A DNA stretch of 64,000 bases from Saprospira sp. CCB-QB6 (lineage in GTDB: Bacteria > Bacteroidota > Bacteroidia > Chitinophagales > Saprospiraceae), in assembly GCF_028464065.1 (NCBI RefSeq), contig NZ_CP116808.1, positions 1,199,886 through 1,263,885 on the forward strand, read 5' to 3'. Under the pieces are notes generated by a model, which was not told where the DNA came from, made no database searches, and saw only the letters and a list, made by a program, of their open reading frames with translations. Below, one piece after another: positions 10,771-42,452 of this stretch (position 1 is the first letter of the stretch; every line of letters begins with the position of its first letter). The translations under genes and the position numbers were made by a program.

Positions 10771-10808
10771 AAGCTATATGGTTAAGCAGTAAGTTATCGT
10801 ATGGCCAA

Positions 10809-22130: not shown

Positions 22131-22131
22131 C

Positions 22132-22169: not shown

Positions 22170-22183
22170 AATGATATATCTAA

Positions 22184-22975
22184 TTACTCATCCGAATCAT
22201 CATCTAAGTTCATCGCTGTAGATTGTCCCTTAGGCATCATACTCGTATCATCCCAAAGTTTAGACACCCAAAAGCGAAGAACCGCCTGTTTCTTTTCCTC
22301 TTTATCAAGATAACCATAATTTCCAGCTGTCTTGGCTTCTAATCGGAAATTGGTTTCTGTTCCCGTCCAACGGAAACTAATTTTTCGCCAAAGCAAACCA
22401 TAACTAGCTTTAACGTGCTTTACTACACCTTGACCATAAGTAGCCGTAGCAATGGCATAAGTCAAAGCATATTTAGCTCTTTTCTTTCGTCCCGCAGCAT
22501 GCGCAATAATTTCAAAGGCTTGTACGCCCTCCAAATCGGAAACGATTGGGTGCCAGCGACCATCGGCAGGGATTTCTCCTTGAACAAAGGTACCTACGCG
22601 GCCATTTGCCCCAAGCATTCCATTTACCTCTAGCTTAAAGTTGGGCAAAGTGGTCCCAATTCCAACATTACCTCCTTTGCGTAAGAAAAGGAGACTTTCA
22701 TTTTCGCCATCATTAAAGCTTAAGCCCTCGCTATGTGGAGTGGGATTCATAGAAACGCTAAACGAGGCTTGCGGGTCCCGAATGCTTTCATAGAAGCTCA
22801 TCAAGCGCTTATTTGGGCCTTGAGTGGCCAACATAAGGCCCTCCGTAGAACTTTGAGAAAAACCATCATCAACCTTATTGACGGTAGAGTCGATAAGGTC
22901 GGCAAAGTTTACTTCTGTGGGGACCATGCCCCTCTTGAATAGATTCTTGAGCGTGCTACGCGTGAGTAAAGCCAT
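22184..22975 (-). CDS. Putative baseplate-attached or tail-fibre-like protein (last gene of the cluster)
   Basis: 263 aa, co-oriented and downstream of the baseplate gene. The N-terminus (LKNLFKRGMVPTEVNFADLIDS) resembles phage fibre anchors only loosely. Confidence 0.6.
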   Translation of the reverse strand: MALLTRSTLKNLFKRGMVPTEVNFADLIDSTVNKVDDGFSQSSTEGLMLATQGPNKRLMSFYESIRDPQASFSVSMNPTPHSEGLSFNDGENESLLFLRKGGNVGIGTTLPNFKLEVNGMLGANGRVGTFVQGEIPADGRWHPIVSDLEGVQAFEIIAHAAGRKKRAKYALTYAIATATYGQGVVKHVKASYGLLWRKISFRWTGTETNFRLEAKTAGNYGYLDKEEKKQAVLRFWVSKLWDDTSMMPKGQSTAMNLDDDSDE

Positions 22976-23117: not shown

Positions 23118-23285
23118 GGTGGCGGAGCCGCCTGTGAGCGAAGCGAGCCATGGCCCAGCGCTGCGCAGCAGTGGCCGCAGGCCAGACCTAGCGGGCGCAG
23201 CCCGCGCAGGGCCGAGCAGACTTGCGAGCTGCGAAGCATAGCGGCGGCCGCCCCACTATAAAGGGCGGCCGCGGGCCCCTAAAAA
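23118..23285 (-). repeat. GC-rich interspersed element, variant A reverse, plus a GCGGCCGC hairpin module
   Basis: gccagacc..gggccgagcag..., then agcggcggccgcccc..gggcggccgcgggc. Confidence 0.8.
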
Positions 23286-23307
23286 TGGTTATTCTAGGCC
23301 TAAAAAA

Positions 23308-23342
23308 GGCCCAAAAGTGCGGAAACTTCTGGGCCTAAGTTT
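23308..23342 (-). terminator. Terminator or attenuator after the baseplate gene
   Basis: On the minus strand, the hairpin ggcccagaag..cttttgggcc is followed by TTTTTT, immediately 3' of the stop at 23362. Confidence 0.45.
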
Positions 23343-23361
23343 TTATAATTTTCTAGCTCGT

Positions 23362-26300
23362 TTAATCGTCTAGTTCACGCTCTTCGGTCATTACAAAGTC
23401 TCCATCGAGCATCATATTGTCTAATCCAGCCTTGGCAGGTGATTGGAAAGCCACCTCGTCTAATAAGTAGAGTGGGTTTTTCTCGAAAGGAATGAGGACC
23501 GACCAAGGGGTAGTTGCCTTAAGTAAGGGAGAAGAAGAATTATCGATTGCGGTATCGCCTACATCAAAGCCTTCTCCGCTAGGGAATACCTGTACGGCAG
23601 AGAATTTCGTGACAAAATCGACATATTCTCTTTTTTCGATAAAGCTGAGGAGAACGTCTTTAGCTAGTGTTCCTCCTAGTTCTAATTCTCTTTGGCCGCC
23701 ATACATCCAGGGGCAGACAAAGTCCATAATATCCTTATTCAATTTTTTGAGAAAAGTACCGTTGTTCATGCCTTTTTGGAAGCGCAGACCGCCGGCTACT
23801 TTTACTCTTTCGTAAATAGGGTTACGGAGTTTAATATCGACAAAGGGGGAAGCTAAAGGAGTAAGATAATCTCGGATAGCCTCAAGAGTAGCGTTATTTA
23901 CCATAGGTAGGCGACCTTGATGAGCAGCCTTAATTCGAGGAACGACAACAAGGACCACTTGGCCTTTATCGACAAATTCTTCATGGCCAATATGGGTAAC
24001 GCATTTCACTTGAAAAATGTCGGGAAATTGATCGAGTACTAAGCGTTCATAATCCCAAGCAGACACTGCTCTTCCTTTATGGCGGAGGCGTTCGCTACTT
24101 CGGGTATAGAACTCTTTTTTATTTTCGCCAGGTCGTCCTTCAAAAGAGCCAAAAGGCTGTTGGACAGATCGAATTTGGACCAATGGATTGACCAAATTTT
24201 TGATCTTATTAGCGGCTAGTTTTTCTTCTAAGTGTTCTACTTCGTCTTCGGGTTCTCCAGCCCAGGTTGCAGAAATAGCTTGTGTTGATAGGTGAAGGAC
24301 AGTGGGCATTCGGCTTGCATCTCCGCGGAGAGAGGCTCGCAGCCAAAACTTACCTTTTTCGAAGATCGTGTTATTCTCAGAAATATCTCTGGGGATATCG
24401 AAGGTGATAATTCCAGAATTATTAAAGAAATTGGTGGTATCGTTTAGAATTTGTGTCTGAGAGAACTCCTTCCACTCATCATTTACGAGAAAGCTCCATA
24501 CAATTTCGGCTTGTTTGGCCTCACTGCTTCGGCCCTTCATCATAGAGAAATAGTCTTGATTCTCTTTGAGCTCGAAGTAGACAGAAAGAGTTGCTGGTGG
24601 GTTGAAGTCTTTGATTCCGAGGAAGAGATAAGCATCCTCGTCATAAGCGGGCAAAAGTGTGGGCTTAATTGGGCGGCCTTGAGAGAAGTTACGCATCACG
24701 CCAAAGGGGTGAATATGGAAGAGTTCTTCTACTACACCGCCAGAGCTATTCACTGTACCGATAGACATAATATTAACTTGAGCGGTTGCTGTATAGTCAA
24801 TACTCATGTTTCTGATTACAGGAGTAAAAGGTTGATTCGGAAGCTTTTTCTTCTCTTTAGTTTTGGGGTCTGCGTTATAAGCAGCCACATCAGCATAAAG
24901 ATTTGGAAACTCATCATGGGCGAATGCAGAGGGTGGATTTGTTAATTCCATACGGAAGTAGCCAGTCTGCGTTTCGCTGGTATAAGTGTCTAGTTGTTTA
25001 AGGTCTGCTTGAGGTTCGAGATCAAAAAGCTTAAGATCGATATTATCTAGGCAAGTGGCCGAGCTAATACCGTGAACGTTATCTTCATCCTGTTCAAAGA
25101 GGAAATATTCTTTGACATTATTCTTAGCTTCAGGGAAGAACTCTCCTTCTCGCAAAGCGGATAGTTTGATTCGGTAATCCTCATTTCGAACTCCTAGGCC
25201 ATACTCACGATAGTAGCCTCGGAGGCCTTTTGTATTATCGGGTAGATTATGCCAGTTAATATTGATTTTCAGATTGGTCAGTTCCTTTTTAAAGAGCTCT
25301 GTTTTTCCGATGAGAAGATAAGAACCAAGTTTTGGTGTAGGGCCAAAAGCTTGAAAAGGGATACTGCCTTCTAGTTGGCCATATTCATTGCTGAGGTTTA
25401 GGCGTTTAATTCCTTTAACCTCTACGTCGATGTTAATTCTTTCTAGGCTTAGCTCTTTAAGGAAAGAGTAAGAGTAGGTCACATTTTCATTTTGGTGAAG
25501 GACCTTCATCACAGGAAGAGTCGTGTCGAAGTCGGGGCCTAAAACGGCAGCATCGTAGCCTACAATAGCAGGAGCATTGGCTGAAACGGTAGCGAGCAGA
25601 CTAAACTCAGGGATGTTCCAATTTTCTGGAGGGAGTAGTTCGCAGCTTTTTGCTTCAATCCATCCTTCTTCTCCAGAGAGGAGTAGTTTCAGGCTATTTT
25701 TAAAAATTTTAGAGAAGGCATCTTCTTTAGAGAGCCCTTGATTACGGCTAATATCCTTAATTAAGAGATTAAGGGTATACATAGAAGACTTGTCAAATCG
25801 CATGCGCAATTTAATGCTTCTGTGTCCTTCTTCCATTTCTAAGATAGGAGCGGCCATAGCCCAACCTACTTCGGCATAGACCATTTGGCGTTCATCGGCT
25901 GCTTTCTCGAGTAGTTCTTCTCCGAAAGCGGGCCATTCCTCTTCATTATTGATAAAGCGTTTGCCTAAGCCATCTCTAGAGTTGGCAATAGGTGCGGCAT
26001 ACATATTAGTAATTAGGCGGTAAGAGCTACCGATACCAATTTTTGGATTTTTGCTTACAAAAAGCGTCTTCACCGAATCAACTTTAGCTTGATTCAATTC
26101 GATACCATAATCAGTTTTATAGCGAATAGGCTTGCCATTTTCGTCTACTCCAGCATCGAGTAGTGTACCTGCAGGCAAGAAAAAGCTATCAATATGTTTA
26201 GCTAAATTGAAATAGACATTCACCTGATCGGGTTGTAAGCCTCTTTCTTGCATTTTAAGCACATCGTAATAGTAAAAATCGAGATGCTTTTCGGTTAGGG

Positions 26301-27132
26301 TATTTAGGTGGTCCTGATTATGTTTAAAGAGTTTAACAAAAGCGATAAATAATGCTAAATCAGGGCGGTGATCATCTTTTTCTTTAAGTGATTTCTCTAG
26401 GTATTTTGGTGCTTCTTGTACGATATAGGAAAGCACACTATAAAAGGTCCGGAATTGCAGGCGGATCTTTTTGGTATAATCTTGAATTTTAAAATTGGCT
26501 CTAGGATCTTCTACTTCAATAGCGCGAGCAGAGAGCAACTTTTTAGAGGGGAACCAAATGCTATGAAAGTTCTCTTCAATTTCGTTGGGGCTATAAATCC
26601 CTGTTTGGTGAAACTCTAGATAGCGATCTTGTTCTAAGAGTTCGAGTAGGTTAGAAGAAAGCTGTTGTTTAATTGCGTTTTCCAATTCATTTTCCAGTTC
26701 ATCGGTATCGCCTGGTTGCAAGGTATTCATTTTGAGTGCATGCTCATACCAATCATTGAACTGTTTGGCCATATCGAAGACCTGGGTATACAGAGCCTTA
26801 AGCGCTTCTAGGCGACCAGCTGTGCGGGCTGCATTTTCTAGCTCAGTAATATATTTGGCGTGTTCCTGCTCAATTTTTTTAAGGTCGGTTGCAATAATTG
26901 AGGCCAAAAATACAGAAAGGTCATTGCGCAAAAAGCGCGACCAATCTCCTGCGGGGGAGTTAGTTTGGTCATAGAACTGGACCATTTCGGCATATTTGGC
27001 AGAAAAGGCAAGGAGGTCACTAGTAGAGCGTTCATCTACCTTAATATATTCTGGGATGAGGGCTTTGAGCAATCGTTGGCTCTGCGTTACGCCATTCCAG
27101 GATAGGCTAGATTTATTCTTTTTGGTACTCAT
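23362..27132 (-). CDS. Large baseplate protein (Afp11/gp6 baseplate-J-like, possibly fused with a gp7-like part)
   Basis: 1256 aa, directly downstream of the gp25-like and PAAR genes. Size and position match eCIS baseplate wedge proteins. No motif confirmed by eye. Confidence 0.7.
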   Translation of the reverse strand: MSTKKNKSSLSWNGVTQSQRLLKALIPEYIKVDERSTSDLLAFSAKYAEMVQFYDQTNSPAGDWSRFLRNDLSVFLASIIATDLKKIEQEHAKYITELENAARTAGRLEALKALYTQVFDMAKQFNDWYEHALKMNTLQPGDTDELENELENAIKQQLSSNLLELLEQDRYLEFHQTGIYSPNEIEENFHSIWFPSKKLLSARAIEVEDPRANFKIQDYTKKIRLQFRTFYSVLSYIVQEAPKYLEKSLKEKDDHRPDLALFIAFVKLFKHNQDHLNTLTEKHLDFYYYDVLKMQERGLQPDQVNVYFNLAKHIDSFFLPAGTLLDAGVDENGKPIRYKTDYGIELNQAKVDSVKTLFVSKNPKIGIGSSYRLITNMYAAPIANSRDGLGKRFINNEEEWPAFGEELLEKAADERQMVYAEVGWAMAAPILEMEEGHRSIKLRMRFDKSSMYTLNLLIKDISRNQGLSKEDAFSKIFKNSLKLLLSGEEGWIEAKSCELLPPENWNIPEFSLLATVSANAPAIVGYDAAVLGPDFDTTLPVMKVLHQNENVTYSYSFLKELSLERINIDVEVKGIKRLNLSNEYGQLEGSIPFQAFGPTPKLGSYLLIGKTELFKKELTNLKININWHNLPDNTKGLRGYYREYGLGVRNEDYRIKLSALREGEFFPEAKNNVKEYFLFEQDEDNVHGISSATCLDNIDLKLFDLEPQADLKQLDTYTSETQTGYFRMELTNPPSAFAHDEFPNLYADVAAYNADPKTKEKKKLPNQPFTPVIRNMSIDYTATAQVNIMSIGTVNSSGGVVEELFHIHPFGVMRNFSQGRPIKPTLLPAYDEDAYLFLGIKDFNPPATLSVYFELKENQDYFSMMKGRSSEAKQAEIVWSFLVNDEWKEFSQTQILNDTTNFFNNSGIITFDIPRDISENNTIFEKGKFWLRASLRGDASRMPTVLHLSTQAISATWAGEPEDEVEHLEEKLAANKIKNLVNPLVQIRSVQQPFGSFEGRPGENKKEFYTRSSERLRHKGRAVSAWDYERLVLDQFPDIFQVKCVTHIGHEEFVDKGQVVLVVVPRIKAAHQGRLPMVNNATLEAIRDYLTPLASPFVDIKLRNPIYERVKVAGGLRFQKGMNNGTFLKKLNKDIMDFVCPWMYGGQRELELGGTLAKDVLLSFIEKREYVDFVTKFSAVQVFPSGEGFDVGDTAIDNSSSPLLKATTPWSVLIPFEKNPLYLLDEVAFQSPAKAGLDNMMLDGDFVMTEERELDD

Positions 27133-27196
27133 GCTAAGGTGCGCTTAAGAGGATGGTTATTGTTGTTCTGATAGTGATAGTTGGGGCTATAGTGAT

Positions 27197-27613
27197 TTAG
27201 AGCTCGGTACCTTCTGCAAGGTAGAAAGGATAGACCATGTTATTACGAGCATTCACCCCCTTAATTTCATAAACTACATTTACATTTACACGGCCACGGA
27301 GTTGTTCGCTTTCATCTACATCGACAGAGATGAGGCGAATACGGGGCTCATGATACAGGATGGCTGTAGTAATGAGATCTTGAATCCGAATTCGGGTAGC
27401 ATTGTTAATGCTTTGAAAAGCTTGGCTATGGATATCGCAACCATAGCTAGGGTTCATGATTCGTTCGCCGGGGAGTGTAGATAATAAGATATTAAGAGAC
27501 TCCTTAATATCTTCTTCGTCTTGAGACATAACAATTCCGCGGGTAGAGTCGCTAAAACGTGGAGGGAAGCTCCAGCCTGAGCCTAAAAATGATTTTTGGA
27601 TATCGTCTGACAT
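27197..27613 (-). CDS. gp25-like baseplate wedge protein (GPW/gp25 family, Afp9-like)
   Basis: 138 aa with LSTLPGERIMNPSYGCDIH, matching the GPW_gp25 core motif. Confidence 0.85.
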   Translation of the reverse strand: MSDDIQKSFLGSGWSFPPRFSDSTRGIVMSQDEEDIKESLNILLSTLPGERIMNPSYGCDIHSQAFQSINNATRIRIQDLITTAILYHEPRIRLISVDVDESEQLRGRVNVNVVYEIKGVNARNNMVYPFYLAEGTEL

Positions 27614-27679
27614 GCTTAGAAATTTCTTATCGTCTAAAAAATTGGGATCAACTATTTATTTTAGGAGCAAAGCAGGCGC

Positions 27680-27808
27680 TGAATTGGCCTAGCGCTGTGG
27701 AAGGGTGGCCCTCAGGCCAGACCGAGGCGGCAAAGCCGCGGCCGAAGGGCCGAGCAGTCCTGCGAGCCCTGAAACCTAGCGCCGCAGCAAAGCTGCGGAG
27801 GCCCCTAA
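27680..27808 (-). repeat. GC-rich interspersed element, variant B reverse, inside the cluster
   Basis: cctagcgctgtgg..gccagaccgaggcggcaaagccgc..cctgcgagccc..gcagctttgctgcggaggcccc. Confidence 0.85.
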
Positions 27809-27812
27809 ACTA

Positions 27813-28103
27813 CTAACCAATAAGCACCGTAGGGGCTCCAGCTACCACTGCTCCGCCATGGCCACAAGAATCACCAATACGGGCAGCGGGTTTACCTTCA
27901 ATCATGACTGTTCCTGAGCCAGAAGCAATAGAGTCGCCAGCGCAGGCACAGACGGCAGAATCGCCAAGGCGGGCCGCGGGGATTCCAGTCACCATAACAG
28001 TTCCGGCACCGCTAACAATAGGTCCTCCAACATGAGGAGCTGGACCGGGGCAAACGGCGGGGCAAACGTGCATATCGCCAATTCGGGCAGAGGGCATTCC
28101 CAT
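27813..28103 (-). CDS. PAAR-domain spike tip protein
   Basis: 96 aa, Gly/Ala-rich, with two PAAR motifs (GIPAARLGD, GKPAARIGD). Confidence 0.85.
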   Translation of the reverse strand: MGMPSARIGDMHVCPAVCPGPAPHVGGPIVSGAGTVMVTGIPAARLGDSAVCACAGDSIASGSGTVMIEGKPAARIGDSCGHGGAVVAGAPTVLIG

Positions 28104-28124
28104 AGTATATTGATTTTAAACGTA

Positions 28125-29969
28125 CTAGTTAATTTTCACTAAACCACCTTTCACTTCACATAGTCCGCCGCCTTCTAGCTTAGCAGAGGCAGAACCTTTG
28201 AGTTCCATAGTGGTTGAGCCTTCTCCTTTTACAGCCAAGGCCTTAATAGAGAAATTGGCTGTGGCTTCCATTTTTGTATCGGAACCTGATTTGGTCTCGA
28301 TGTTAATGTCTGCCTCCATTTTAATATTTTTCTTGGCTTTAACGACAAAGTCTCCATCCGTTTCGAAGAGAATTCCATTTTTGTCCATCAACATTTTGTT
28401 GACATTCACGGGGTCTTCGATCAAGATCGTATCTTCATCGTCATTAAGCTCCACGATCATTTTATCCTCTGTAATAATCTTGACGATATTTTTGCCAGGA
28501 TCATCTTGAAGTTCGATACGTGTTTTTCCTTTATTGATAGAGATAGCTTTAAAGATATTGGGATCGGCAGGAATATGCGTTTCCTCGGTGGTAATACCTC
28601 TTCCGCTACTATACATAGAGCCCAAAATGACGGGATAAGTGGGATCAGCATTAAAAAAGCCAACAACCACTTCATCGCCTACTTCGGGATAAAATACAAA
28701 TCCGCAATCTTCGGTGGCATAATAATGCGCCATACGCGCCCAAACGCCTTCACCAGCTTGATCATCAATAATTGGGATATTGATTAAAACGCGAAACTCA
28801 CCATCTGGATCTGAGTCAATTTGCTTAACTACACCATGTTGTAGGCCATGAATAGCCGGTAAAGTTCCTCCTGCTGGGCGAGAGCTGGCCGTAAGGTTGG
28901 CCTCCATATAAGGTTGAGGATCCATACCTAAGCCCACCTCTGTTAACCATTGTCCTTTAAGGATAGTGTGGCGAACTTTGCTTACATAAGCATCGCCGAC
29001 AAAGCGGGTTCCAAAACCAAAAAGCTCAATTGTTTTACCCAATTCTGCTTTGGCCGAACCATAAAACTTCAGACTACCTCGAATTCGAGAGAGATGTCCT
29101 CTTTGATAAACGGAGTCTGCCCAAGACTGGATCACATCTTTAGTTACAGGAGGAGTGGTTTTGACCGTATTTTTGGGTTCAATAACGGCCCCCAACTTAG
29201 CAGAGTCCAAGTCTCCCTGTGCATTAACCTTTGGTTTAGCGCCATCAGCTGTTACAATAGCCAAATCTGTATGACTCCAACTGGTTGCACCAACCTCTTT
29301 ATATTGATAGGTTGAGTCAATATTCATATCCATCTCTACCAAGTCATTTCCATAAGAAATAACGAGTTCAGACTTCTCACTAACCGTAGGTTTCTTAATA
29401 CTAATTTCACCATCATCAATGATAGTCACCAAGCTATTCACATCAGCCCGAGAGTGTATAAAATCCCAATCAGTGCTCCAATATTGAATTAACTTCTTGT
29501 GCTTTCCTTTCGTTGCTTCCACATCCGCAGAAAGTCCAGCCTCACTCACAACTGCCGAAATAATATCCGAATCAAGCTGATCATAAAAAACCTTGTTTTT
29601 CCGGCCAACAGTTAGTTTAAGCGCTTTATCCTTACACTTGAGCACTAGAGCTGCTCCACTATAATTAGACTGCTTAATACCATGCTCTACTAAGATACCT
29701 TTATAAAGGGTTTGCTCTTTACCAGGACCATAACCTGCTTTTACCTCCACTTCTTTTCCCGGCTCAAACATGGCATCCTCAGAGGTCGGAAACTTCTGTT
29801 CCCGAGTATCTCCGTCCTTAAGCGTAATAAGAGCATAAGGAATCTTATTCAATTCCTTTACAATATCTACGCTCTCCACGACCATTGTTTTAGGCACCTC
29901 GGTTCCATCTATCAGTACAAGTACCGACAGATAGCCTTCGCCCATGCCTTTTACTGGAGAATCTGCCAT
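28125..29969 (-). CDS. VgrG / phage late-control-D-like spike protein (gp27-gp5-like, Afp8-like)
   Basis: 614 aa, with beta-rich repeats at the C-terminus and the expected position between the tube genes and PAAR. Confidence 0.75.
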   Translation of the reverse strand: MADSPVKGMGEGYLSVLVLIDGTEVPKTMVVESVDIVKELNKIPYALITLKDGDTREQKFPTSEDAMFEPGKEVEVKAGYGPGKEQTLYKGILVEHGIKQSNYSGAALVLKCKDKALKLTVGRKNKVFYDQLDSDIISAVVSEAGLSADVEATKGKHKKLIQYWSTDWDFIHSRADVNSLVTIIDDGEISIKKPTVSEKSELVISYGNDLVEMDMNIDSTYQYKEVGATSWSHTDLAIVTADGAKPKVNAQGDLDSAKLGAVIEPKNTVKTTPPVTKDVIQSWADSVYQRGHLSRIRGSLKFYGSAKAELGKTIELFGFGTRFVGDAYVSKVRHTILKGQWLTEVGLGMDPQPYMEANLTASSRPAGGTLPAIHGLQHGVVKQIDSDPDGEFRVLINIPIIDDQAGEGVWARMAHYYATEDCGFVFYPEVGDEVVVGFFNADPTYPVILGSMYSSGRGITTEETHIPADPNIFKAISINKGKTRIELQDDPGKNIVKIITEDKMIVELNDDEDTILIEDPVNVNKMLMDKNGILFETDGDFVVKAKKNIKMEADINIETKSGSDTKMEATANFSIKALAVKGEGSTTMELKGSASAKLEGGGLCEVKGGLVKIN

Positions 29970-30005
29970 TTTTCTTTATTTATCTTCTAGTTAATTGAGT
30001 CAATT

Positions 30006-30194
30006 CTATCGATTCATTTTGTACTCCCAAGCTTCCATTGCCCGTCGTACTGCTTCCTGAATCAAAATTTCTTTATCTTTTTCGGTCATTCCCTTTCCCT
30101 GATCCTTCCCATCTTTTTTCCCTTGACCTTTGCCTCCACCATTTTCTGCATTCACATTGGTGTTGACATTCATCTCTTTTACTGTTACTGCCAT
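30006..30194 (-). CDS. Small Lys/Gly-rich protein (62 aa), Afp6-like position
   Basis: Co-oriented small ORF between the Afp5-like tube and the spike genes. Confidence 0.45.
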   Translation of the reverse strand: MAVTVKEMNVNTNVNAENGGGKGQGKKDGKDQGKGMTEKDKEILIQEAVRRAMEAWEYKMNR

Positions 30195-30228
30195 AAGGTT
30201 AGTGTTTTATCTTTGAGCAGATTATTTA

Positions 30229-30346
30229 GGGGCCTGCGGGCTACGCCCGCCGCTATGTTTCAGGGCTCGCAAGCCTGCTCGGCCCTTCAGCCGCCTTTGG
30301 CGGCTTCGGTCTGGCCCTGCGGGCCACCCTTCCACAGCGCTAGGCC
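30229..30346 (+). repeat. GC-rich interspersed element, variant B, inside the cluster
   Basis: GGGGCCTGCGGG...GGGCTCGCAAG...CACAGCGCTAGGCC. Confidence 0.85.
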
Positions 30347-30360
30347 ATAAACGGCTTCGC

Positions 30361-31050
30361 TTAATGTGCTACTACCTTAGAGAATGCATAAGAAAGTTCA
30401 ATCTCCTGAACCAACAAATCCTCTGAAGTAGAATTCAATGAGCTCAAACTCATTTTAGACGGATACGCAAAATTAAATTCCATAGAAATCAAAATCTGCG
30501 GCTTTCCCGATTGTGTAAGGTTAGGATGCATAACATTAACCTGAACTCCCTTCAACTTAAGCTGCTTATTCCAAGAAGCCATAGCATCAAAACTCTCCTC
30601 ACACCACTGTGTCCAAGGGTCAGAACTTTTAATCACATCTGGCCGAACTAGACGCTTAAGCGTAATTGCAGAGTTTTTCATCTTATCAGGTAAGTCAATA
30701 GGATAATTGTATCCCCCCTCATTATAAGTCTTCTTCCCCTCTAGTCCAATCTCTAATCCACTCACCTCTATAAATGAGTTGTGAATATTGGTGTCGCCTG
30801 GCGTAGGCAAGCCATTCGCACCACCACCATCAAGTTTGTTAATCCCCTGTTTAAGCAATCCTCCGGCCATGCCCCCAACAAAAGTATCGACAGCTCCTTT
30901 GGCTACTCCTGCCAAAAAGCTATTTCCCTCATGCTTTTGATCATACATCTGCACATCAAAGTAAAAAGCGGGAATGGGCGAGGTTGTTTTCTCGTCCTCT
31001 TTCATTACTTCATCTAAAAAGCGCTCAAATGGGCTAATGGTATTATTCAT
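30361..31050 (-). CDS. Tube-family protein with insertion (Afp5/Pvc5-like)
   Basis: PAFYFDVQM...FIEVSGLEIGLE echoes the tube-protein core of the two neighbouring tube genes. Confidence 0.65.
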   Translation of the reverse strand: MNNTISPFERFLDEVMKEDEKTTSPIPAFYFDVQMYDQKHEGNSFLAGVAKGAVDTFVGGMAGGLLKQGINKLDGGGANGLPTPGDTNIHNSFIEVSGLEIGLEGKKTYNEGGYNYPIDLPDKMKNSAITLKRLVRPDVIKSSDPWTQWCEESFDAMASWNKQLKLKGVQVNVMHPNLTQSGKPQILISMEFNFAYPSKMSLSSLNSTSEDLLVQEIELSYAFSKVVAH

Positions 31051-31110
31051 ATCTTATTGGGATTATCTATAGCTATTGGTCTAAAAGTTAATTTGCTAAG
31101 CAGTTTCAAT

Positions 31111-31569
31111 TTAACCGCCTACCTGCGTTTCAAAATGACGGAAGGCAAATTCCATCTCCTCTACCGCTACTTCATTTTCAGATTCAGCATCAAAATTAGA
31201 GGGAATGTACTTTGTAATAAAAGCCTTTTCAAGCCGCCAAATAAACTGCGTCTCCATATTGTGATCCAAGAGATGAATTTCAATTGTCCGACGAGAAGTA
31301 TACTCCCGACTCACCGCTACCTGATCAAACAAACGACTCATTTGATCATCCTGAGAGAAAGAGCCTTTCTTAAGTGTAATCCGACTATATTGCAACATGC
31401 CAGGCATGCGCTCCTTTCCAAAAAAGGGAGAATTACCATCTCGGTACTCAATCACCCCAATCTCCGCTTCCAAACCATCTACAGTCTGAAAAGACATTTC
31501 AATTGGACCAATAAACACCCGAAAGCTAAAGCGCGTTAGGGGCCATGTCATTGTGGAATCTGAACTCAT
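31111..31569 (-). CDS. Phage-tail tube protein (T4 gp19 / Hcp-like fold), copy 2
   Basis: WPLTRFSFRV...FQTVDGLEAEIGVIEYRDGN, paralogous to the 31818-32273 product. Confidence 0.85.
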   Translation of the reverse strand: MSSDSTMTWPLTRFSFRVFIGPIEMSFQTVDGLEAEIGVIEYRDGNSPFFGKERMPGMLQYSRITLKKGSFSQDDQMSRLFDQVAVSREYTSRRTIEIHLLDHNMETQFIWRLEKAFITKYIPSNFDAESENEVAVEEMEFAFRHFETQVGG

Positions 31570-31757
31570 AACATCTATTTTTAAGAAAGCAGCTGCCCAA
31601 GTTAACTAGCTAAATACTAGCGTCAAGGCATGGATTTTTTGGGCCTATGCCCTGAAAATAGCGCTTAGCGATATCACCTTTAATAATCAGGCAGTTAAGA
31701 CTCGCTATAAGTTAAGCGCTTTAGGCTACTAAATTAAAGAAAAAATCTTAATAGCAC

Positions 31758-31792
31758 AAAAAAAACCTAGCAGGTTTTTACCTGCCAGGTTT
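31758..31792 (-). terminator. Hairpin plus T-run (attenuator) after the major tube gene
   Basis: On the minus strand, the hairpin cctggcagg..cctgctagg is followed by T8, directly 3' of the stop at 31818. Confidence 0.45.
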
Positions 31793-31817
31793 AATTTATT
31801 GCTAAGCTAAATTAAGC

Positions 31818-32273
31818 TTATGCAGTTTCCATAGTCCACTCTTCGCAGCAGAACTCAAGTTCTTCGATAGCGACTTCAGAGTCAGCTTCTGCGTCAAAAG
31901 GAGTAGGAGTAAACTTAGTAACGAAAGCGTTGAGAAGAGTCCAAGTGAAAACGATCTCATCAGCTTCATTCATCAAGTGAATGATTACAGTACGACGCTC
32001 AGTGTGCTGGTGGTCAACTGAAAGCTCTTTGTACCACTGATATAGGTAGTCATCGCTCTGGAAAGTACCCTTCTTCAAGGTGATGTTGCTATAAGACATC
32101 AAACCAGGACGCTTAGTCTTGTAGAAGTTGGTAGAGTTACCTGCGCGGTACTCCATTACAGAAATCTCAGTCTCAAGACCTTCGATTGTCTGGAAGCCCA
32201 AAGTGTTGGGGATATTGTCAATCTCGATAGAGAAGTAAAACTTAGGCAGTGGCCATTCTGTTGTTGCAGACAT
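31818..32273 (-). CDS. Phage-tail tube protein (T4 gp19-like, Afp1/Pvc1-like), major copy
   Basis: WPLPKFYFSIEI...FQTIEGLETEISVMEYRAGN. Codon usage is strongly biased, consistent with high expression. Confidence 0.9.
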   Translation of the reverse strand: MSATTEWPLPKFYFSIEIDNIPNTLGFQTIEGLETEISVMEYRAGNSTNFYKTKRPGLMSYSNITLKKGTFQSDDYLYQWYKELSVDHQHTERRTVIIHLMNEADEIVFTWTLLNAFVTKFTPTPFDAEADSEVAIEELEFCCEEWTMETA

Positions 32274-32385
32274 GATATATGGCGTTTAAAAGTATGATCT
32301 AAATTTAAATTGTTGATGCTCTCTTGTTTAAGCCCAAGAGAAAGGCTCAATGCTTTAGATGTCATCTCTAAGTTAAGCGCAAAGC

Positions 32386-33879
32386 TTACTCAGCACCACC
32401 GGGCATTTTTTGCTGGAAGGTGATAACGATGAATTCAGCAGGACGAGAGATAGCTACTTTCACAGAAACTTTCATGTAACCATCTAGGATATCCTGAGGA
32501 GTCATAGTTGTACCCAAACCAACTTCTACTTGGAAAGCTTGGTCTTCAGTAGCACCTACCAAAGCACCTGCTTGCCACTGGCTACGCAAGAATGAACCAA
32601 TCATTGATTTAACTGCGATCCAAGTGTTAGCGTCATTGGGACGGAATACGAAAGGCTCACAAGCGAACTTCACAGACTGCTCCAACATGATCATAGTACG
32701 ACGTACGTTGATGTAGCGCCAGTCTTGGCTGTTACCGTCTAGAGTACGAGCACCCCATACCAAAGTACCTTTTCCAACGAAAGGACGGATAGCGTTGATT
32801 GCTTTACCACTCAAAGGCAAGTTCAAGTCTTCTTGCTCAGTAGCAGAAATGTTAACAGTAGGTCCAGTTACAGAAGAAACTGATACGTTAGCAGGAGCTT
32901 TGAATACACCTACAGTGCTGTCTACCAAAGAGTAAAGACCAGCGATAGCACCAGAAGGAGGCAATACGTTCAACATATCGCGCATTTGACCCAATACATC
33001 GTTGTATACAGGGCTTACAGCCTTCATGATGTTGTGTACAGCAGTTACGTTAGCATCAGCGTCAGCCATCTTAGCGATCTCAGCTTTGATCAACTCACCT
33101 TTTTCAGCTTTAACGAAACCAGCAGCTACGTTGTCATCAACTTCTTTGTTAAGCAATTCAACGAAACCTTCTAGGTTAGCAACGTTAGTGTAGTCAAACT
33201 CATCAGCTTGAACAACAGTAGCTTTCAACCAAGGGTAGTAAGCAGCACCAAAGTCTAGGAAGTTGTTGCCATAAGCCTCACGAGCGCGAGTTACAACATC
33301 ATCATCTAGCATGCTGCGAGATTCGTTACCGTTCCATACATCTAGGATAGCGAAGCGGCTGCGAGTATCAGCACCACAGTGCTTCAACATAGCTTGCTGT
33401 ACAGTAGCACAGTCACCTTCTTCCAAAGAGATAGCATCGGGAACTACAACCAAAGTAGGCTCTTGCTCCTTCAACAAAGCAGTGATACCACCGCCGTTCT
33501 CAGTACCAACTAGTGTTTTGGGAGAAACGTCATCGCCGTATCCACCAACAGAAACGATGTAGCAAGTTCCACCACCGTTAGCGTAGAACATTTGAAGGCT
33601 ACGGAACAACATGTAGTTACCGCCATCAACAGAAACGGTGTAGTTGTCACCTTCAGCATCAACGTTGAAAGTAGTTTTGGGAGCACCACCGAAGTAAGAT
33701 AGGTACTCAACCAAAGAAGTAATGCGCATTGGCGTGTTAGTCAAGTCGCGCTTACCAGCAGCGGCTTTCTCAGTGTGGCCAATGAAAGCAGGGATAGCAG
33801 TTCCTACTGCTACAACAGAATTCGAGAAGGCGCTTTTTTCTTCGATATAAACGCCTGGTGTTGCATACTGTTTTGCCAT
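32386..33879 (-). CDS. Contractile tail sheath protein
   Basis: N-terminus MAKQYATPGVYIEEKS is the phage/eCIS sheath signature. 497 aa with strongly biased codon usage (gct/ggt/gtt/aac/gaa). Confidence 0.9.
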   Translation of the reverse strand: MAKQYATPGVYIEEKSAFSNSVVAVGTAIPAFIGHTEKAAAGKRDLTNTPMRITSLVEYLSYFGGAPKTTFNVDAEGDNYTVSVDGGNYMLFRSLQMFYANGGGTCYIVSVGGYGDDVSPKTLVGTENGGGITALLKEQEPTLVVVPDAISLEEGDCATVQQAMLKHCGADTRSRFAILDVWNGNESRSMLDDDVVTRAREAYGNNFLDFGAAYYPWLKATVVQADEFDYTNVANLEGFVELLNKEVDDNVAAGFVKAEKGELIKAEIAKMADADANVTAVHNIMKAVSPVYNDVLGQMRDMLNVLPPSGAIAGLYSLVDSTVGVFKAPANVSVSSVTGPTVNISATEQEDLNLPLSGKAINAIRPFVGKGTLVWGARTLDGNSQDWRYINVRRTMIMLEQSVKFACEPFVFRPNDANTWIAVKSMIGSFLRSQWQAGALVGATEDQAFQVEVGLGTTMTPQDILDGYMKVSVKVAISRPAEFIVITFQQKMPGGAE

Positions 33880-33935
33880 GATTTAATTTATTTTGAAAAG
33901 TTTAATTGATTTACAAATTTATTTCTATCAACTGA

Positions 33936-35063
33936 TTACAAATATACAATTATTTCGGAAAACACAGCATCCTCAACGTTAAAATCTGTTTTTAATATTG
34001 ATTTTGCTGAATGATTAGGTAAATCTGTAATCCATTCAATTCCATTTTTGCCTCTTTTGGTCCTGAGTTTAAAGCGACTAAGTTGTTTCTCCTTAAAGGG
34101 AACAGGCTCTGAAGTTTTGACCAATATAGCCATTTCGCCAGAAGGCATTTCCACCTCTTCCGCTTCTTCAAAGTCTACTGTTTCGCCAGCTCGACCATTA
34201 TCGTAAGCTTCATGTCCTTTGTGCTGCTTATCCTCTGACATTTCCACTATATAGTAGTGCCAAGGCAGTGAACGAGCGGGAAAATGAATATTATAATCTC
34301 TTTTGGGCAACAACTTCCCTTCTGCATCAAAAAAGCGGTAAGGGCTGTCATCCTCCTTGTCAATATAAATATCCACTACGCCCCAAATACCTGCGGTTCC
34401 TTCTGGAGCCATATAAAAAGTATATTCTTCCAAACCATCTAGCTGCAAAATATACTTTCCGGCAGGTGCATCAGGCATGACCACATCTACATGTGCATTT
34501 TCGCCCTCCTGTTCCAAAAAGAAATAAGATTGACCCAATTCATCAACGACCTCAATTTCCGCATCTTCCTCTTCATCATCAAATTCGTAGCGAAAAACGG
34601 GGCCTTCAATTGGTAAGCGATCCATTTCAGAAACTAACTCATCATTAGAGAGATTGCCAGCTTCATCTTCAATCTTATCTTCAGCCCGGTTAGTGAAGTG
34701 ATAAAGATAGTCACCAAACTCATAAGGAAGACCTGTATAGTTAAGGAAGAAAGCATCTTCTACCTTCATCCAAAAACTAAGCTTTAGGGGCTTTTCCAAA
34801 CTTTCTAAAGCAGGGCCTCCTGAAACTGTTTCCCCATAACCAATCAGCAAATTATTGCCTTCAAAGGCAGTTTTAAGCTGAGTTTGTTTTAGGCGAAAAA
34901 CCGTGTCGGAAGTAGGGCTAAGAACTACATCTTGACAGATCTGCTCATCAAAGTAATCGTGCAATATAGCTATGTTCAATAGCTGATTATAGCGAGTTTG
35001 GATGTTCAGCAGCATATGATGCTCCATCGGATTCCGTCGCCTGCTAATTTTACGTCTCTTCAT
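33936..35063 (-). CDS. Acidic hypothetical protein (375 aa) between the cap and sheath genes
   Basis: Long co-oriented ORF. The N-terminus may start later (MEHHMLL). No recognisable domain. Confidence 0.6.
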   Translation of the reverse strand: MKRRKISRRRNPMEHHMLLNIQTRYNQLLNIAILHDYFDEQICQDVVLSPTSDTVFRLKQTQLKTAFEGNNLLIGYGETVSGGPALESLEKPLKLSFWMKVEDAFFLNYTGLPYEFGDYLYHFTNRAEDKIEDEAGNLSNDELVSEMDRLPIEGPVFRYEFDDEEEDAEIEVVDELGQSYFFLEQEGENAHVDVVMPDAPAGKYILQLDGLEEYTFYMAPEGTAGIWGVVDIYIDKEDDSPYRFFDAEGKLLPKRDYNIHFPARSLPWHYYIVEMSEDKQHKGHEAYDNGRAGETVDFEEAEEVEMPSGEMAILVKTSEPVPFKEKQLSRFKLRTKRGKNGIEWITDLPNHSAKSILKTDFNVEDAVFSEIIVYL

Positions 35064-35251
35064 TAAGCTCTTCTGCTTTAAGTCCCTTAAAATTAGAGAA
35101 TTTAATTTTGGTCTGCAAAGTTTATATGCAGTTTTTTTTCATTTTTTTTAACAAAAGCTAAAATTTAGCTGAAGTTAAGTCTAGAAGCCCGATGAGCAGG
35201 GCTTTTCGCCTCATTAGTTAACTGTCTGAGGCTTTAGCGCTAGCTCATTTT

Positions 35252-35370
35252 GGCCTAGCGATGTGTAGGGGTGGCCGAAGGCCAGACCGAAGCGCGCAGC
35301 GCTGAAGGGCCGAGCGAACAGCGAGCCCCGAAACGTAGCGCCGACGAGCGTAGCGAGACGGAGGCCCCAA
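35252..35370 (-). repeat. GC-rich interspersed element, variant B reverse, inside the cluster
   Basis: ggcctagcgatgtg..gccagaccgaagcg..gggccgagcgaacagcgagcccc..ggaggcccc. Confidence 0.85.
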
Positions 35371-35376
35371 ATTCTT

Positions 35377-36252: not shown

Positions 36253-36405
36253 TTTTGGGGCTGCCCCTCCTTTCAGTCGGGTCGGGCTGTGCCGTGGCTC
36301 GCTAATCGCTCGGCCCTGCGCCAGCAAGCTGGCTGGGTCTGCGGCTTCGCCGCACCACTTTCCATCCCTCAGCCTGCGGCGGCTTTGCCGCCTGCTCACC
36401 GCAAA
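36253..36405 (+). repeat. GC-rich interspersed element, variant A
   Basis: TTTTGGGGCTGCCCC..GGGTCGGGCTGTG..CTCGCT..CGGCCC. ORF 36193-36507 is an artefact. Confidence 0.85.
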
Positions 36406-36410
36406 AGGAC

Positions 36411-41790: not shown

Positions 41791-41923
41791 GTGAACTGTT
41801 TTTTTGGGGCCTCCGCTGCGGCTTCGCCTTGCGGCGCTACGTTCCGCAGCTCGCTCTTCGCTCGGCCCTGCGGCGCAAGCGCCTTGGTCTGGCCTGACGG
41901 CCACTGCTGCACATCGCTAGGCC
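41791..41923 (+). repeat. GC-rich interspersed element, variant B
   Basis: TTTTTGGGGCCTCCGC..CGCAGCTCGCT..CACATCGCTAGGCC. Confidence 0.85.
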
Positions 41924-41964
41924 AAATGGATACCCTCCGCTTCAAATATCCTTTCTAATCTTTT

Positions 41965-42258
41965 GGATGGCATATATCTGCGCAAAAAATAGTGGTCCAA
42001 GCTTTCAGATGGTATGTATCTGCGCAAAAAATAGTGGTCCAAGCTTTCGGATGGCATGTATCTGCACAAAAAATAGCCGTCTAAGCTTTTGGACGGCATA
42101 TATCTGTGCAAAAAATAGCTGTCTAGGCTTTTAGACGACACATATCTCCACAAAAAATAACCGTCTAGGCTTTTGGACGACACATATCTCCACAAAAAAT
42201 AACCGTCTAGGCTTTTGGACGATACATATCTCCACAAAAAATAGCGGTCAACTCTTGG
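41965..42258. repeat. Tandem direct repeat, 42-bp unit x 7
   Basis: Units ggatggcatatatctgcgcaaaaaatagtggtccaagctttc diverge progressively. Copies 5 and 6 are identical. No spacers, so it is not a CRISPR array. Confidence 0.9.
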
Positions 42259-42304
42259 GGAGGGGGTATAAGTTGCCTAGAGACAATAAAAGCAGGGACA
42301 ACGC

Positions 42305-42452
42305 CCTAGCTGCGGCTTGGCAGCCGCAGCATCGGCCTAGCGATGTGGAGGGGGGGCCGCAGGCCAGACCGAGGCGGCAAAGCCGCCGAAGGGCCGAGCG
42401 AATAGCGAGCCCCGCAACGTAGCGCCGCAGCTTTGCTGCGGAGGCCCCAAAA
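42305..42452 (-). repeat. GC-rich interspersed element, variant B reverse
   Basis: ggcctagcgatgtgg..gccagaccgaggcggcaaagccgcc..gcagctttgctgcggaggcccc. Confidence 0.85.

What the first reader, a model, noticed from the sequence alone, without database searches (positions are those of the whole stretch)
23118..35370. Repeat elements are inserted between genes inside the injection-system operon
Copies lie between the 263-aa gene and the baseplate gene (23118-23285, with a terminator-like hairpin at 23308-23342), between the gp25-like and PAAR genes (27680-27808), between the 62-aa and Afp5-like genes (30229-30346), and between the 375-aa and cap genes (35252-35370). They would be co-transcribed as structured RNA segments. 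They may act as mRNA stability or attenuation determinants that set the expression stoichiometry of structural components.
Basis: partly seen in the sequence, partly recalled or inferred. Interest (0 to 1): 0.5.

Follow-up and report, generated by a model that had tools for sequence, protein, structure and literature searches.

The report
Genome-wide REP-like folded repeats in Saprospira
The GC-rich segments between the injection-system genes are real insertions. They belong to a family of folded repeats of about 120 nt that sits in roughly every third intergenic gap of Saprospira grandis, in either orientation, so nothing ties them to tuning this operon.

Summary
Observation confirmed. All four stretches are full-length copies of one repeat (covariance-model E-values 1e-16 to 1e-19). 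The window is Saprospira grandis and holds 22 copies, about one per 2.9 kb, 11 on each strand, among housekeeping genes as well as in the operon. A fifth copy lies inside the conserved cluster at 36257-36374.

Sister Saprospira and Aureispira clusters lack the element and have 12-47 nt spacers where S. grandis has 166-313 nt. A second S. grandis strain shares every copy at the same site and orientation.

The unit is about 118 nt with a branched fold. Across 150 copies, 98.9% of cells are paired and 23 of 28 pairs show compensatory changes.

- Loops are mostly C(GNA)G triloops on one strand (175 GNA against 4 on the complement), the signature of DNA mini-hairpins.
- A GTAG tag sits at the foot of the 3' hairpin.
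- All 25 adjacent pairs are head-to-head.
- Orientation relative to transcription is random (32 sense, 28 antisense).

Best reading: a previously uncatalogued, compound REP/BIME-like mobile element that folds as single-stranded DNA. The operon copies are co-transcribed passengers. The stoichiometry idea is unsupported: the conserved attenuator after the tube gene is an ordinary terminator, also present in relatives without repeats.

The parts
23118..23289 (+). Repeat copy 1. It has an optional 5' hairpin module (23118-23151), a 118-position core (23152-23279) and an A-rich tail. It is antisense to the operon and lies downstream of the operon terminator, upstream of the 263-aa gene.
   Evidence: Model R1 scores 84.9 bits, E 1e-16. 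Sequence. The orthologous copy is in L001 at 20614-20753.
27686..27809 (+). Repeat copy 2 (type A), between the PAAR gene and the gp25 gene, antisense to the operon. Its 3' end lies 7 nt from the PAAR stop codon.
   Evidence: Model R1 scores 96.8 bits. The junction is 199 nt here against 28-47 nt in L002, L005 and L006.
30229..30346 (-). Repeat copy 3 (type A), between the Afp5-like tube gene and the DUF5908 gene, in sense with the operon. Its 5' end lies 14 nt after the stop codon, and 34 nt remain before the next ATG.
   Evidence: Model R1 scores 93.5 bits. The junction is 166 nt against 20-32 nt in relatives.
35252..35372 (+). Repeat copy 4 (type A), between the Pvc16-like cap gene and the 375-aa gene, antisense to the operon. 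Its 3' end lies 8 nt from the cap stop codon.
   Evidence: Model R1 scores 105.1 bits. The junction is 313 nt against 15-30 nt in relatives.
36257..36406 (-). Repeat copy 5 (type B, with the 5' hairpin module), between the 725-aa GH18 gene and the 85-aa gene.
   Evidence: Model R1 scores 110.6 bits. The junction is about 210 nt against 12-37 nt in relatives.
41806..42448 (.). Head-to-head pair of copies (41806-41923 minus, 42334-42448 plus) at the upstream edge of the cluster. The pair encloses a 42-nt tandem repeat array (41960-42249).
31763..31792 (-). Intrinsic terminator/attenuator hairpin (13-bp stem plus a T-run) after the major tube gene. It is not a repeat copy and is conserved in relatives.
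   Evidence: Conserved position with a covarying stem in L001, L002, L005, L006, L007, L011, L013 and L018.
23307..23336 (-). Intrinsic terminator (12-bp stem plus TTTTTT) after the 1256-aa baseplate gene.
   Evidence: Conserved in L001.

Best explanation
The four segments are copies of a genome-wide, non-autonomous interspersed repeat of Saprospira grandis. A related family occurs in some other, mostly unidentified, metagenome lineages.

The unit is a compound REP/BIME-like element. It has a core of about 118 nt with a long irregular stem (P1-P4) topped by a junction carrying two variable hairpins. A conserved single-stranded core reads AGACC ... GGGCCGAGCGAAYAGCGAGC. A 3' arm has the anatomy of a classical REP: a GTAG foot, a hairpin, then CC-AAAA.

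Inferred mechanism:
- One specific strand folds as single-stranded DNA and is recognised by a trans-acting enzyme. A REP-associated HUH tyrosine transposase (RAYT) of the kind known in Bacteroidetes is the most likely candidate.
- This spread the element into intergenic spacers. Gene conversion between copies then shuffled the hairpin modules.
- Selection kept only insertions that spare coding sequence and the 25-35 nt or more ahead of the next start codon. That is why copies sit just after stop codons in tight operon junctions.

The operon copies are passengers. Three or four are probably transcribed with the operon and form stable hairpins in the mRNA, but there is no sign that they were recruited to set the stoichiometry of the injection system.
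For: Shown here:
- One family, 22 copies in 64 kb, 11 per strand, among FtsH, UvrC, RsfS, tRNA and transporter genes as well as the injection-system cluster.
- Lineage-specific insertion. There are no model hits in 19 related cluster loci, including Saprospira sp. and Aureispira, or in 61 further Bacteroidota loci (1.03 Mb). Junctions there are 12-47 nt.
- All seven cluster copies are shared by strain DSM 2844 at the same site and orientation.
- The fold is real. In 150 copies 98.9% of cells are paired, against 77.8% when shuffled and 48% or less when slid. Compensatory changes occur in 23 of 28 pairs.
- The fold is strand-specific. G-U to A-C counts are 81:8. GNA triloops number 175, of which 155 are C(GNA)G, against 4 on the complement. 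Only 11 GNRA and 4 UNCG occur among 130 tetraloops. With DNA parameters the canonical strand folds better than its complement for all four operon copies.
- A GTAG/ATAG/CTAG tag sits at the foot of the 3' hairpin in type A copies and in most diverged lineages.
- All 25 adjacent pairs are head-to-head, in mixed gene contexts.
- There is no bias relative to transcription: 32 sense, 28 antisense, 24 convergent, 21 divergent.
- Orthologous copies differ by whole-hairpin swaps, loop flips (AAA/TTT) and one type A/type B replacement, while their flanks stay nearly identical. Element identity is 64-84% against 83-96% for coding DNA.

From the literature:
- d(GCGNAGC) mini-hairpins are extraordinarily stable in DNA and much less so in RNA. 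They occur at single-strand DNA initiation signals (PMC13037366).
- REP families carry a GTAG tag and form mostly head-to-head dimers, with head-to-tail dimers absent. They lie downstream of genes and are thought to be mobilised by RAYTs acting on single-stranded REP DNA (PMC3733652).
- Bacteroidetes have TnpA-REP subclasses 2.4 and 2.6. [quoted passage not shown]
Against: - No transposase of any kind lies in the window.
- No HUH/Y1 reading frame was found in about 2.3 Mb of fetched loci, by tblastn with remembered RayT and IS200 TnpA sequences and by a motif scan. No multi-copy gene was found next to the repeats.
- No empty or filled polymorphism was available, so the exact ends, target site and any duplication are unknown.
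- Copies are 11:11 on the two strands of a window with monotonic GC skew. This is not what lagging-strand-dependent IS200/IS605 transposition predicts.
- The unit is three to five times longer and far more elaborate than any described REP.
- The long conserved single-stranded core across lineages of 34-59% G+C would also fit a functional RNA or a host-used DNA signal.
- The pair counts were made on model-fitted alignments, which lean towards the model.
- The DNA-versus-RNA argument rests on loop statistics, not on measurement.
Confidence: 0.6

Rival explanations
1. One reading: the operon copies are co-transcribed RNA structures. They act as mRNA-stability or attenuation determinants and set the stoichiometry of structural components.
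For: Three copies lie between genes with no predicted terminator or promoter on the operon strand. As RNA they fold very stably in either orientation, at -56 to -58 kcal/mol. REP, ERIC and similar repeats are known to alter the decay of flanking mRNA segments (background in PMC3733652). Related families have independently entered the same kind of operon in L022 and L173.
Against: The density equals the genome background. Orientation in the operon is mixed (three antisense, two sense), and orientation relative to transcription is random genome-wide. Copies are equally common in divergent promoter regions. Loops are of the DNA type, not the RNA type. The boundary between high-copy and low-copy proteins is already served by a conserved classic terminator after the tube gene, present in relatives without repeats. 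One of the four copies lies beyond the operon terminator.
Confidence: 0.12
2. The element is a structured RNA: a small RNA gene, a ribozyme, or the template of an RNA-mediated (SINE-like) retroelement. Copies would be made from master transcripts, and the conserved CC-AAAA 3' end would serve as a priming or recognition site.
For: There is strong covariation in a branched fold, with a long conserved unpaired core shared by lineages of very different G+C. The fold is strand-specific. The 3' stem+CC+A(3-7) is conserved. Insertion orientation is random, as expected for retroposition.
Against: No Rfam family matches at gathering or permissive thresholds. There are 376 triloops against 130 tetraloops, and almost no GNRA or UNCG, which is atypical of natural structured RNAs. 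The A-run is short and fixed (about 4 nt), not a variable tail. No reverse transcriptase lies in the window, and no multi-copy gene recurs beside the repeats in the fetched loci. The strict head-to-head dimers and the GTAG tag match REP biology.
Confidence: 0.08
3. The repeats are host-used single-strand or duplex DNA signals. Examples would be priming (ssi-like) sites, or binding sites for gyrase or nucleoid proteins as proposed for BIMEs. In this reading they are maintained for chromosome function, not as selfish DNA.
For: C(GNA)G mini-hairpins characterise single-strand initiation signals such as the phage G4 origin and RSF1010 ssiA (PMC13037366). The core is conserved across lineages. Spacing is regular at about 3 kb.
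Against: The element is absent from the closest sister species and from 80 other Bacteroidota loci, so it is not needed for general chromosome function. There is no strand bias relative to the replication direction implied by GC skew. Orthologous copies diverge faster than coding DNA and are patch-replaced.
Confidence: 0.1
4. A conventional MITE, moved as double-stranded DNA by a DDE transposase that recognises short terminal inverted repeats (TTTTGG...CCAAAA).
For: The ends form a short inverted repeat: 5' TTTTG(C/G)GG or TTTTGGCC, and 3' GGCCCCAAAA. Copy number is high and the location is intergenic.
Against: The terminal repeats are only about 6-8 bp. The interior is asymmetric and under strand-specific structural constraint, with G-U pairs and GNA loops on one strand only. 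A double-strand mechanism does not predict this. No DDE transposase or multi-copy reading frame was found in the sampled DNA. No target-site duplication is evident.
Confidence: 0.07

Closest known systems
REP / BIME / REPIN elements with their RAYT (TnpA-REP) transposases, the 'GTAG-tagged' REP superfamily
   Same: - High-copy intergenic repeats that often lie just downstream of genes and inside operons.
- A GTAG tetranucleotide at the foot of a hairpin (the 3' arm here).
- Singletons plus head-to-head dimers, with no head-to-tail dimers.
- Heterodimers of two subtypes, like Y/Z in BIMEs.
- A mosaic of optional modules.
- Inferred recognition as folded single-stranded DNA.
- Vertical persistence within a lineage and absence from sister species.
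   Different: - The unit is about 118 nt with five to six covarying helices and a 20-nt conserved unpaired core, not a single 20-40 nt imperfect palindrome.
- Type B copies lack GTAG.
- No higher-order clusters were seen.
- No RAYT was found in the DNA available.
ERIC/IRU elements of enterobacteria and Correia (NEMIS) elements of Neisseria
   Same: They are 100-150 nt repeats inserted in transcribed intergenic regions in either orientation. They are co-transcribed and fold into stable RNA structures that can change the stability of neighbouring mRNA segments.
   Different: Those are long simple palindromes built from terminal inverted repeats (Correia elements have a TA duplication and RNase III sites). 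The Saprospira element is asymmetric and branched, its helices are only 4-7 bp long, and its loops have a DNA-type signature.
BOX elements of Streptococcus pneumoniae
   Same: A modular build from conserved and variable/optional modules, intergenic location, stable folds and occasional effects on neighbouring genes.
   Different: There is no sequence or architectural similarity. BOX has boxA-(boxB)n-boxC with tandem module repeats. Here the variable parts are interchangeable hairpins at fixed positions in one fold.
Single-strand DNA initiation signals (phage G4 origin, ssiA of RSF1010)
   Same: These are orientation-specific folded single-stranded DNA of 40-150 nt, containing C(GNA)G mini-hairpins.
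   Different: They are single-copy origin components recognised by primases. Nothing here shows priming, and the repeats show no bias relative to the direction of replication.

Membership tests
REP (repetitive extragenic palindrome) / REPIN | Unit is a short (about 20-40 nt) single imperfect palindrome | tested here: not met
   The unit is about 118 nt with 28 modelled pairs in 8-9 helices. Only the 3' arm (GTAG plus hairpin) resembles a REP.
REP (repetitive extragenic palindrome) / REPIN | GT[AG]G tetranucleotide at the foot of the hairpin | tested here: inconclusive
   In about 83 type A copies the tag is GTAG in 57, ATAG in 14 and CTAG in 4. It is GTAG or ATAG in most diverged lineages. About 55 type B copies have CAGCCCGA or a close variant instead.
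REP (repetitive extragenic palindrome) / REPIN | High copy number, almost exclusively intergenic | tested here: met
   There are 22 copies in 64 kb and 201 in 0.61 Mb of searched loci. The only 'intragenic' cases are short reading frames of about 100 aa that the element itself creates.
REP (repetitive extragenic palindrome) / REPIN | Inverted dimers preferred (head-to-head), head-to-tail dimers absent | tested here: met
   All 25 adjacent pairs are head-to-head, with no tail-to-tail and no tandem pairs. Compare PMC3733652.
REP (repetitive extragenic palindrome) / REPIN | Cognate single-copy RAYT (HUH Y1 transposase) gene flanked by the repeats | not testable with these tools
   None was found in the window or in about 2.3 Mb of fetched loci.
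MITE (DDE-transposase dependent) | Terminal inverted repeats of 10 bp or more matching an autonomous insertion sequence, and a target-site duplication | tested here: not met
   Only about 6-8 bp of T/A-run plus GG/CC symmetry at the ends. No duplication is visible. No matching insertion sequence was found.
Described structured RNA family (Rfam 15) | Match to a curated covariance model | tested here: not met
   Only four tRNAs reach gathering scores in the window. Permissive scans of three copies give only chance-level hits with E>0.4.
   For location and orientation: 32 sense, 28 antisense, 24 convergent and 21 divergent, with no enrichment in the operon. The effect on mRNA levels is not testable with these tools.

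The most novel reading that the evidence does not exclude
The element is a new class of structured single-stranded DNA motif. It would be a five- to six-helix, 118-nt fold with a conserved unpaired core, kept across several bacterial lineages of 34-59% G+C. A dedicated enzyme would recognise it as a three-dimensional DNA structure. Candidates are a Bacteroidetes-type TnpA-REP of subclass 2.6 or 2.4, or a primase-like protein. This would make it the most elaborate REP-type substrate known and a natural example of covariation-constrained DNA tertiary architecture.
Probability: 0.25. Interest if true: 0.65.

Novelty: new variant of a known kind. Interest (0 to 1): 0.4.

Why it matters
For the injection-system operon it matters little. 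The repeats are passengers, and the conserved terminator after the tube gene is the more credible expression-ratio device.

The family itself is of moderate interest.
- It is absent from Rfam, and I found no description of it in the papers I could search.
- It makes up roughly 4-5% of the window.
- It shows unusually clean covariation for a bacterial repeat.
- Three signatures point to a single-strand DNA life cycle: one-strand C(GNA)G triloops, a GTAG foot and strict head-to-head pairing.

If a cognate HUH enzyme exists, this would extend the REP/RAYT paradigm to Bacteroidota with a far more complex substrate. It could explain the 'atypical secondary structures' reported around Bacteroidetes TnpA-REP genes.

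Practically, these repeats create spurious reading frames of about 100 aa and will fragment short-read assemblies of Saprospira.

Tried and rejected
- **Rfam.** A gathering scan of the whole window and permissive scans of three copies found no family.
- **Viral contigs.** No match to the core pattern, so nothing suggests a phage origin.
- **Mobilising gene.** No transposase in Pfam scans of 40 window proteins. All-against-all clustering of 690 reading frames from the repeat-bearing loci found no multi-copy gene. No shared neighbour gene next to diverged copies. The tblastn search and HUH-motif scan found only one weak hit (L103), which lies on the antisense strand of a dehydrogenase gene and is spurious.
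- **Empty sites.** The only overlapping loci (L001, L187) share all copies, so ends and target duplication remain undefined.
- **Promoter or terminator roles.** The tail plus flank does not fit the Bacteroidetes -7 motif, judged by eye from the flank profile. No copy is followed by a T-run on either strand.
- **Poly-A-like tail.** The A-run is short and fixed in length.
- **Type A/B pairing rule in dimers.** The counts (AB 13, AA 6, BB 3) fit random assortment.
- **Literature.** Searches for Saprospira repeats and for the core sequence string returned nothing relevant. Saprospira is not in the held supplements of the HUH survey.

Full report
**Source and setting**

The window is Saprospira grandis. 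The sheath protein is 99% identical to that of strain DSM 2844 (L001), and an 18.8-kb stretch aligns at 87% nucleotide identity.

The genes on the minus strand from about 41.6 kb to 22.2 kb form an Afp/PVC-like contractile injection cluster. In transcription order they are:
- a 359-aa protein and two GH18-domain proteins;
- an 85-aa protein, a Pvc16-like cap and a 375-aa protein;
- the sheath, three gp19-type tube proteins and a DUF5908 protein;
- a VgrG-like spike, PAAR, gp25 and a 1256-aa baseplate protein;
- after a gap, a 263-aa protein.

The same gene order is found in Saprospira sp., Aureispira and other Saprospiraceae loci.

Each of the four intervals is about 70% G+C in a 44% G+C window. 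Each matches a covariance model built from the window's copies over its full length, with E-values of 1e-16 to 1e-19.

Four details need correcting.
- The first interval also contains an optional 5' hairpin module.
- The hairpin at 23308-23342 is a genuine intrinsic terminator of the minus strand: a 12-bp stem plus TTTTTT, directly after the baseplate gene. Copy 1 therefore lies beyond the end of that transcription unit.
- A fifth copy (36257-36374) lies within the conserved cluster, and a head-to-head pair lies at its upstream edge.
- Relative to the operon, copies 23152, 27686 and 35252 are antisense, while 30229 and 36257 are sense.

**The copies are not special to the operon**

The window holds 22 copies, 11 on each strand, or one per 2.9 kb. 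They lie next to tRNA-Gln genes, a sulfate permease, FtsH, RsfS, UvrC, a SpoU methylase and others. The cluster has 5 copies in 19.5 kb, and the rest of the window has 17 in 44.5 kb. For a genome of about 4.25 Mb (PMC10508125) that density extrapolates to roughly 1,400 copies. This figure is an inference, not a count.

**They are insertions, and not recent ones**

Junction lengths in nt:

| Junction | S. grandis (window / DSM 2844) | L002, L003, L005, L006 (Saprospira sp. genomes and a Saprospiraceae genome; sheath 82-85% identical) |
|---|---|---|
| cap -> 375 aa | 313 / 313 | 15-30 |
| Afp5 -> DUF5908 | 166 / 184 | 20-32 |
| PAAR -> gp25 | 199 / 195 | 28-47 |
| GH18 -> 85 aa | ~210 / 223 | 12-37 |

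The model finds no copy in those loci, in Aureispira loci, or in 61 further Bacteroidota injection-system loci totalling 1.03 Mb.

DSM 2844 has all seven copies of this region at the same sites and orientations. Its coding DNA here is only 83-96% identical to the window. The insertions therefore predate the split of these strains and postdate the split from the sister Saprospira lineage.

**Anatomy**

Read in the orientation that ends in CCCC-AAAA, a copy has these parts in order:
- P1: GGCCT/AGGCC in type A, GGCTG/CAGCC in type B;
- short helices P2 and P3, then P4 (for example GGGG/CCCC, CAGC/GCTG, GTGG/CCAC);
- a hairpin P5;
- the invariant AGACC;
- a variable hairpin P7 enclosed by a CC/GG clamp;
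- a conserved unpaired GGGCCGAGC-GAAYA-GCGAGC;
- a 3' arm made of a tag (GTAG in type A), a variable hairpin P8 and the 3' strand of P1;
- finally CC and AAAA.

Many copies add a 5' hairpin module (TTTTGCGGTGRRCAG-hairpin-CGCA). Some carry a third kind of 3' arm.

Covariation is strong. In 150 copies, 98.9% of cells form standard pairs, against 77.8% after shuffling and 48% or less when partners are slid. Compensatory double changes occur in 23 of 28 pairs (smaller sets). These counts come from model-fitted alignments and so lean towards the model, but the compensations are plain in the raw sequences.

**Distribution beyond S. grandis**

Most come from one metagenome with Saprospira-like composition and carry many copies each. 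One of them, L187, is orthologous to window 45.1-52.0 kb.

About 20 other contigs, with 34-59% G+C, carry diverged but full-length homologues. In these, P1 covaries again (GCGTG/CACGC, CTGTG/CACAG, GGCAT/ATGCC). The unpaired motifs, the GTAG/ATAG tag and the stem-CC-A(n) end are retained.

Two of these lineages have their own insertions inside injection-system clusters. In L022 they lie after PAAR and gp25. In L173 one lies between the sheath and tube genes.

**Which molecule folds**

The fold is strand-specific in three respects.
- On the canonical strand, G-U pairs outnumber A-C mismatches 81 to 8, or 17 to 8 without one dominant pair.
- Among perfect hairpins there are 376 triloops and 130 tetraloops. 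Of the triloops, 175 are GNA (155 closed by C-G), against 4 TNC, which would be GNA on the other strand. GNRA (11) and UNCG (4) tetraloops, the hallmarks of structured RNAs, are nearly absent.
- With DNA energy parameters the canonical strand beats its complement in all four operon copies, with z-scores of -2.8, -2.5, -3.7 and -0.2 against -1.7, -1.5, -2.4 and +0.9.

C(GNA)G is the 'mini-hairpin' motif d(GCGNAGC). It is extraordinarily stable as DNA, much less so as RNA, and is known from single-strand DNA initiation signals (PMC13037366). I infer that the selected fold is a single-stranded DNA fold. This rests on loop statistics, not on measurement.

**Behaviour in the genome**

- Of 105 classifiable copies, 32 are in sense between co-directional genes and 28 antisense. 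A further 24 lie between convergent genes and 21 between divergent genes.
- Copies sit closer to the upstream stop codon (median 53 nt, often 2-14 nt) than to the next start codon (median 140 nt, essentially never under about 25 nt). This is what selection against hitting ribosome-binding sites and promoters would leave.
- All 25 pairs of neighbouring copies (gap 600 nt or less) are head-to-head. None is tail-to-tail or tandem. This holds in every gene context, with random type A/B assortment.
- Orthologous copies in the two strains keep nearly identical flanks. They differ by wholesale replacement of hairpins, concerted changes on both sides of P4, loop flips (AAA/TTT) and, at one site, type A against type B. 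Their identity is 64-84%, below that of coding DNA. This patchy pattern fits gene conversion among many copies.

**Comparison with known elements**

The GTAG foot, the head-to-head dimers without head-to-tail forms, heterodimers, the position downstream of genes, the mosaic modules and inferred single-strand DNA recognition all match REP/BIME/REPIN biology. That biology and its link to RAYT transposases are described in PMC3733652.

Bacteroidetes are reported to carry TnpA-REP subclasses 2.4 and 2.6. [quoted passage not shown]

The Saprospira unit fails the size and simplicity criterion of a REP. It is a 118-nt branched fold with a 20-nt conserved unpaired core, and type B lacks GTAG. I therefore class it as a new variant of the REP-like kind, not as a member. 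I could not find the enzyme, and the genome-wide scan needed to look for it was no longer available.

**Consequences for the operon**

Copies 27686, 30229 and 35252 (and 36257) are probably transcribed within the polycistronic message, where they would form stable hairpins in either orientation. They lengthen junctions that are otherwise tight enough for translational coupling. A REP-like side effect on mRNA decay is therefore possible.

Nothing indicates recruitment. Orientation is mixed, density equals the background, and the family is absent from sister species with the same cluster. The one feature that looks like a stoichiometry device is the strong terminator directly after the major tube gene (31792-31763). 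It is an ordinary hairpin plus T-run, conserved with compensatory stem changes in S. grandis, Saprospira sp. and Aureispira alike.

**Verdict**

The element family is an uncatalogued, compound REP-like repeat with a single-strand DNA signature. Interest is moderate for the family and low for the operon claim.

Noticed in passing
window 31763-31792 (minus strand); L001, L002, L005, L006, L007, L011, L013, L018 just after the tube1 gene: A strong intrinsic terminator (13-bp stem plus a T-run) sits directly after the major tube gene. It is conserved in position, with covarying stem sequences, across S. grandis, Saprospira sp. and Aureispira. It is a likely attenuator separating sheath/tube genes from baseplate genes.
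   Followed up: partly
window+L001+metagenome loci (e.g. window 41806-41923/42334-42448, 47348-47514/47786-47905; L175 1855-2137): Every one of 25 neighbouring copy pairs is head-to-head, with 5' ends facing and A-tails outward. None is tail-to-tail or tandem, whatever the gene context. The cause is unknown; it could be a dimer as the mobile unit, targeted insertion, or loss of other arrangements.
   Followed up: partly
window 41960-42249: A 42-nt tandem repeat of 6.9 units (88% matches) lies between the two heads of a repeat pair, upstream of the 359-aa first gene of the cluster. It creates a spurious 106-aa reading frame (41917-42237).
   Followed up: no
window 21893-21961, 47374-47407, 54489-54775 (three copies), 57144-57208: This is a third kind of 3' arm or module (GACAACAAGG-hairpin-GCAGTTCGACGACC-GAAG-GGAGTAACCGCC). 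It is appended to or nested in core copies, and the 21897-22031 and 57074-57208 stretches are 94% complementary over 135 nt. It shows that the family is a mosaic of interchangeable modules.
   Followed up: partly
window 4018-4129 and 6761-6872: These are the two most similar copies in the window (97% over 112 nt). They are inverted and bracket a TetR-family regulator gene and a sulfate-permease gene. This could reflect a recent duplication or conversion, or a composite arrangement.
   Followed up: no
L022 7457-7542, 17305-17424, 18735-18890; L173 6730-6854: Other lineages carry related repeats that entered their own injection-system clusters independently. In the Saprospiraceae genome L022 (50% G+C) they lie after PAAR, after gp25 and before the 85-aa gene; in the metagenome contig L173 one lies between the sheath and tube genes. 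In L022 the type-B 3' arm alone (ATAGCCCGACCCCGCG...GGGGGCACGCCCAAAAAAA) recurs as a free-standing unit.
   Followed up: partly
L082, L113, L178 (55-59% G+C); L180, L181, L124, L122 (34-38% G+C): Full-length homologues of the element occur in metagenome contigs of very different base composition. P1 covaries and the unpaired core is conserved. The organisms are unidentified.
   Followed up: no
window 36411-40517 and orthologous positions in L001-L018: Two GH18 (chitinase-like) proteins and a 359-aa protein are syntenic with the injection-system genes in all Saprospira and Aureispira loci examined. They may be cargo or accessory components.
   Followed up: no
window 17006-20365 (minus): A 1119-aa nSTAND1 NTPase with WD40 repeats lies about 1.8 kb beyond the 263-aa gene at the downstream end of the cluster, separated from it by a convergently transcribed E1 dehydrogenase gene.
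   Followed up: no
window 8693-11792 (minus); 2098-2289 (minus); 55937-56110 (plus): Three tandem paralogues of a DUF6976 protein, with 67-76% nucleotide identity between neighbouring units. There are also tandem duplicate tRNA-Gln(ttg) and tRNA-Asn(gtt) genes, and a repeat copy lies immediately downstream of the tRNA-Gln pair.
   Followed up: no
window 7133-7774, 21939-22313, 47646-47930, 58305-58664 and similar: The G+C-rich repeats generate or extend open reading frames of about 100 aa or more on either strand. Gene callers may annotate these as hypothetical proteins.
   Followed up: no
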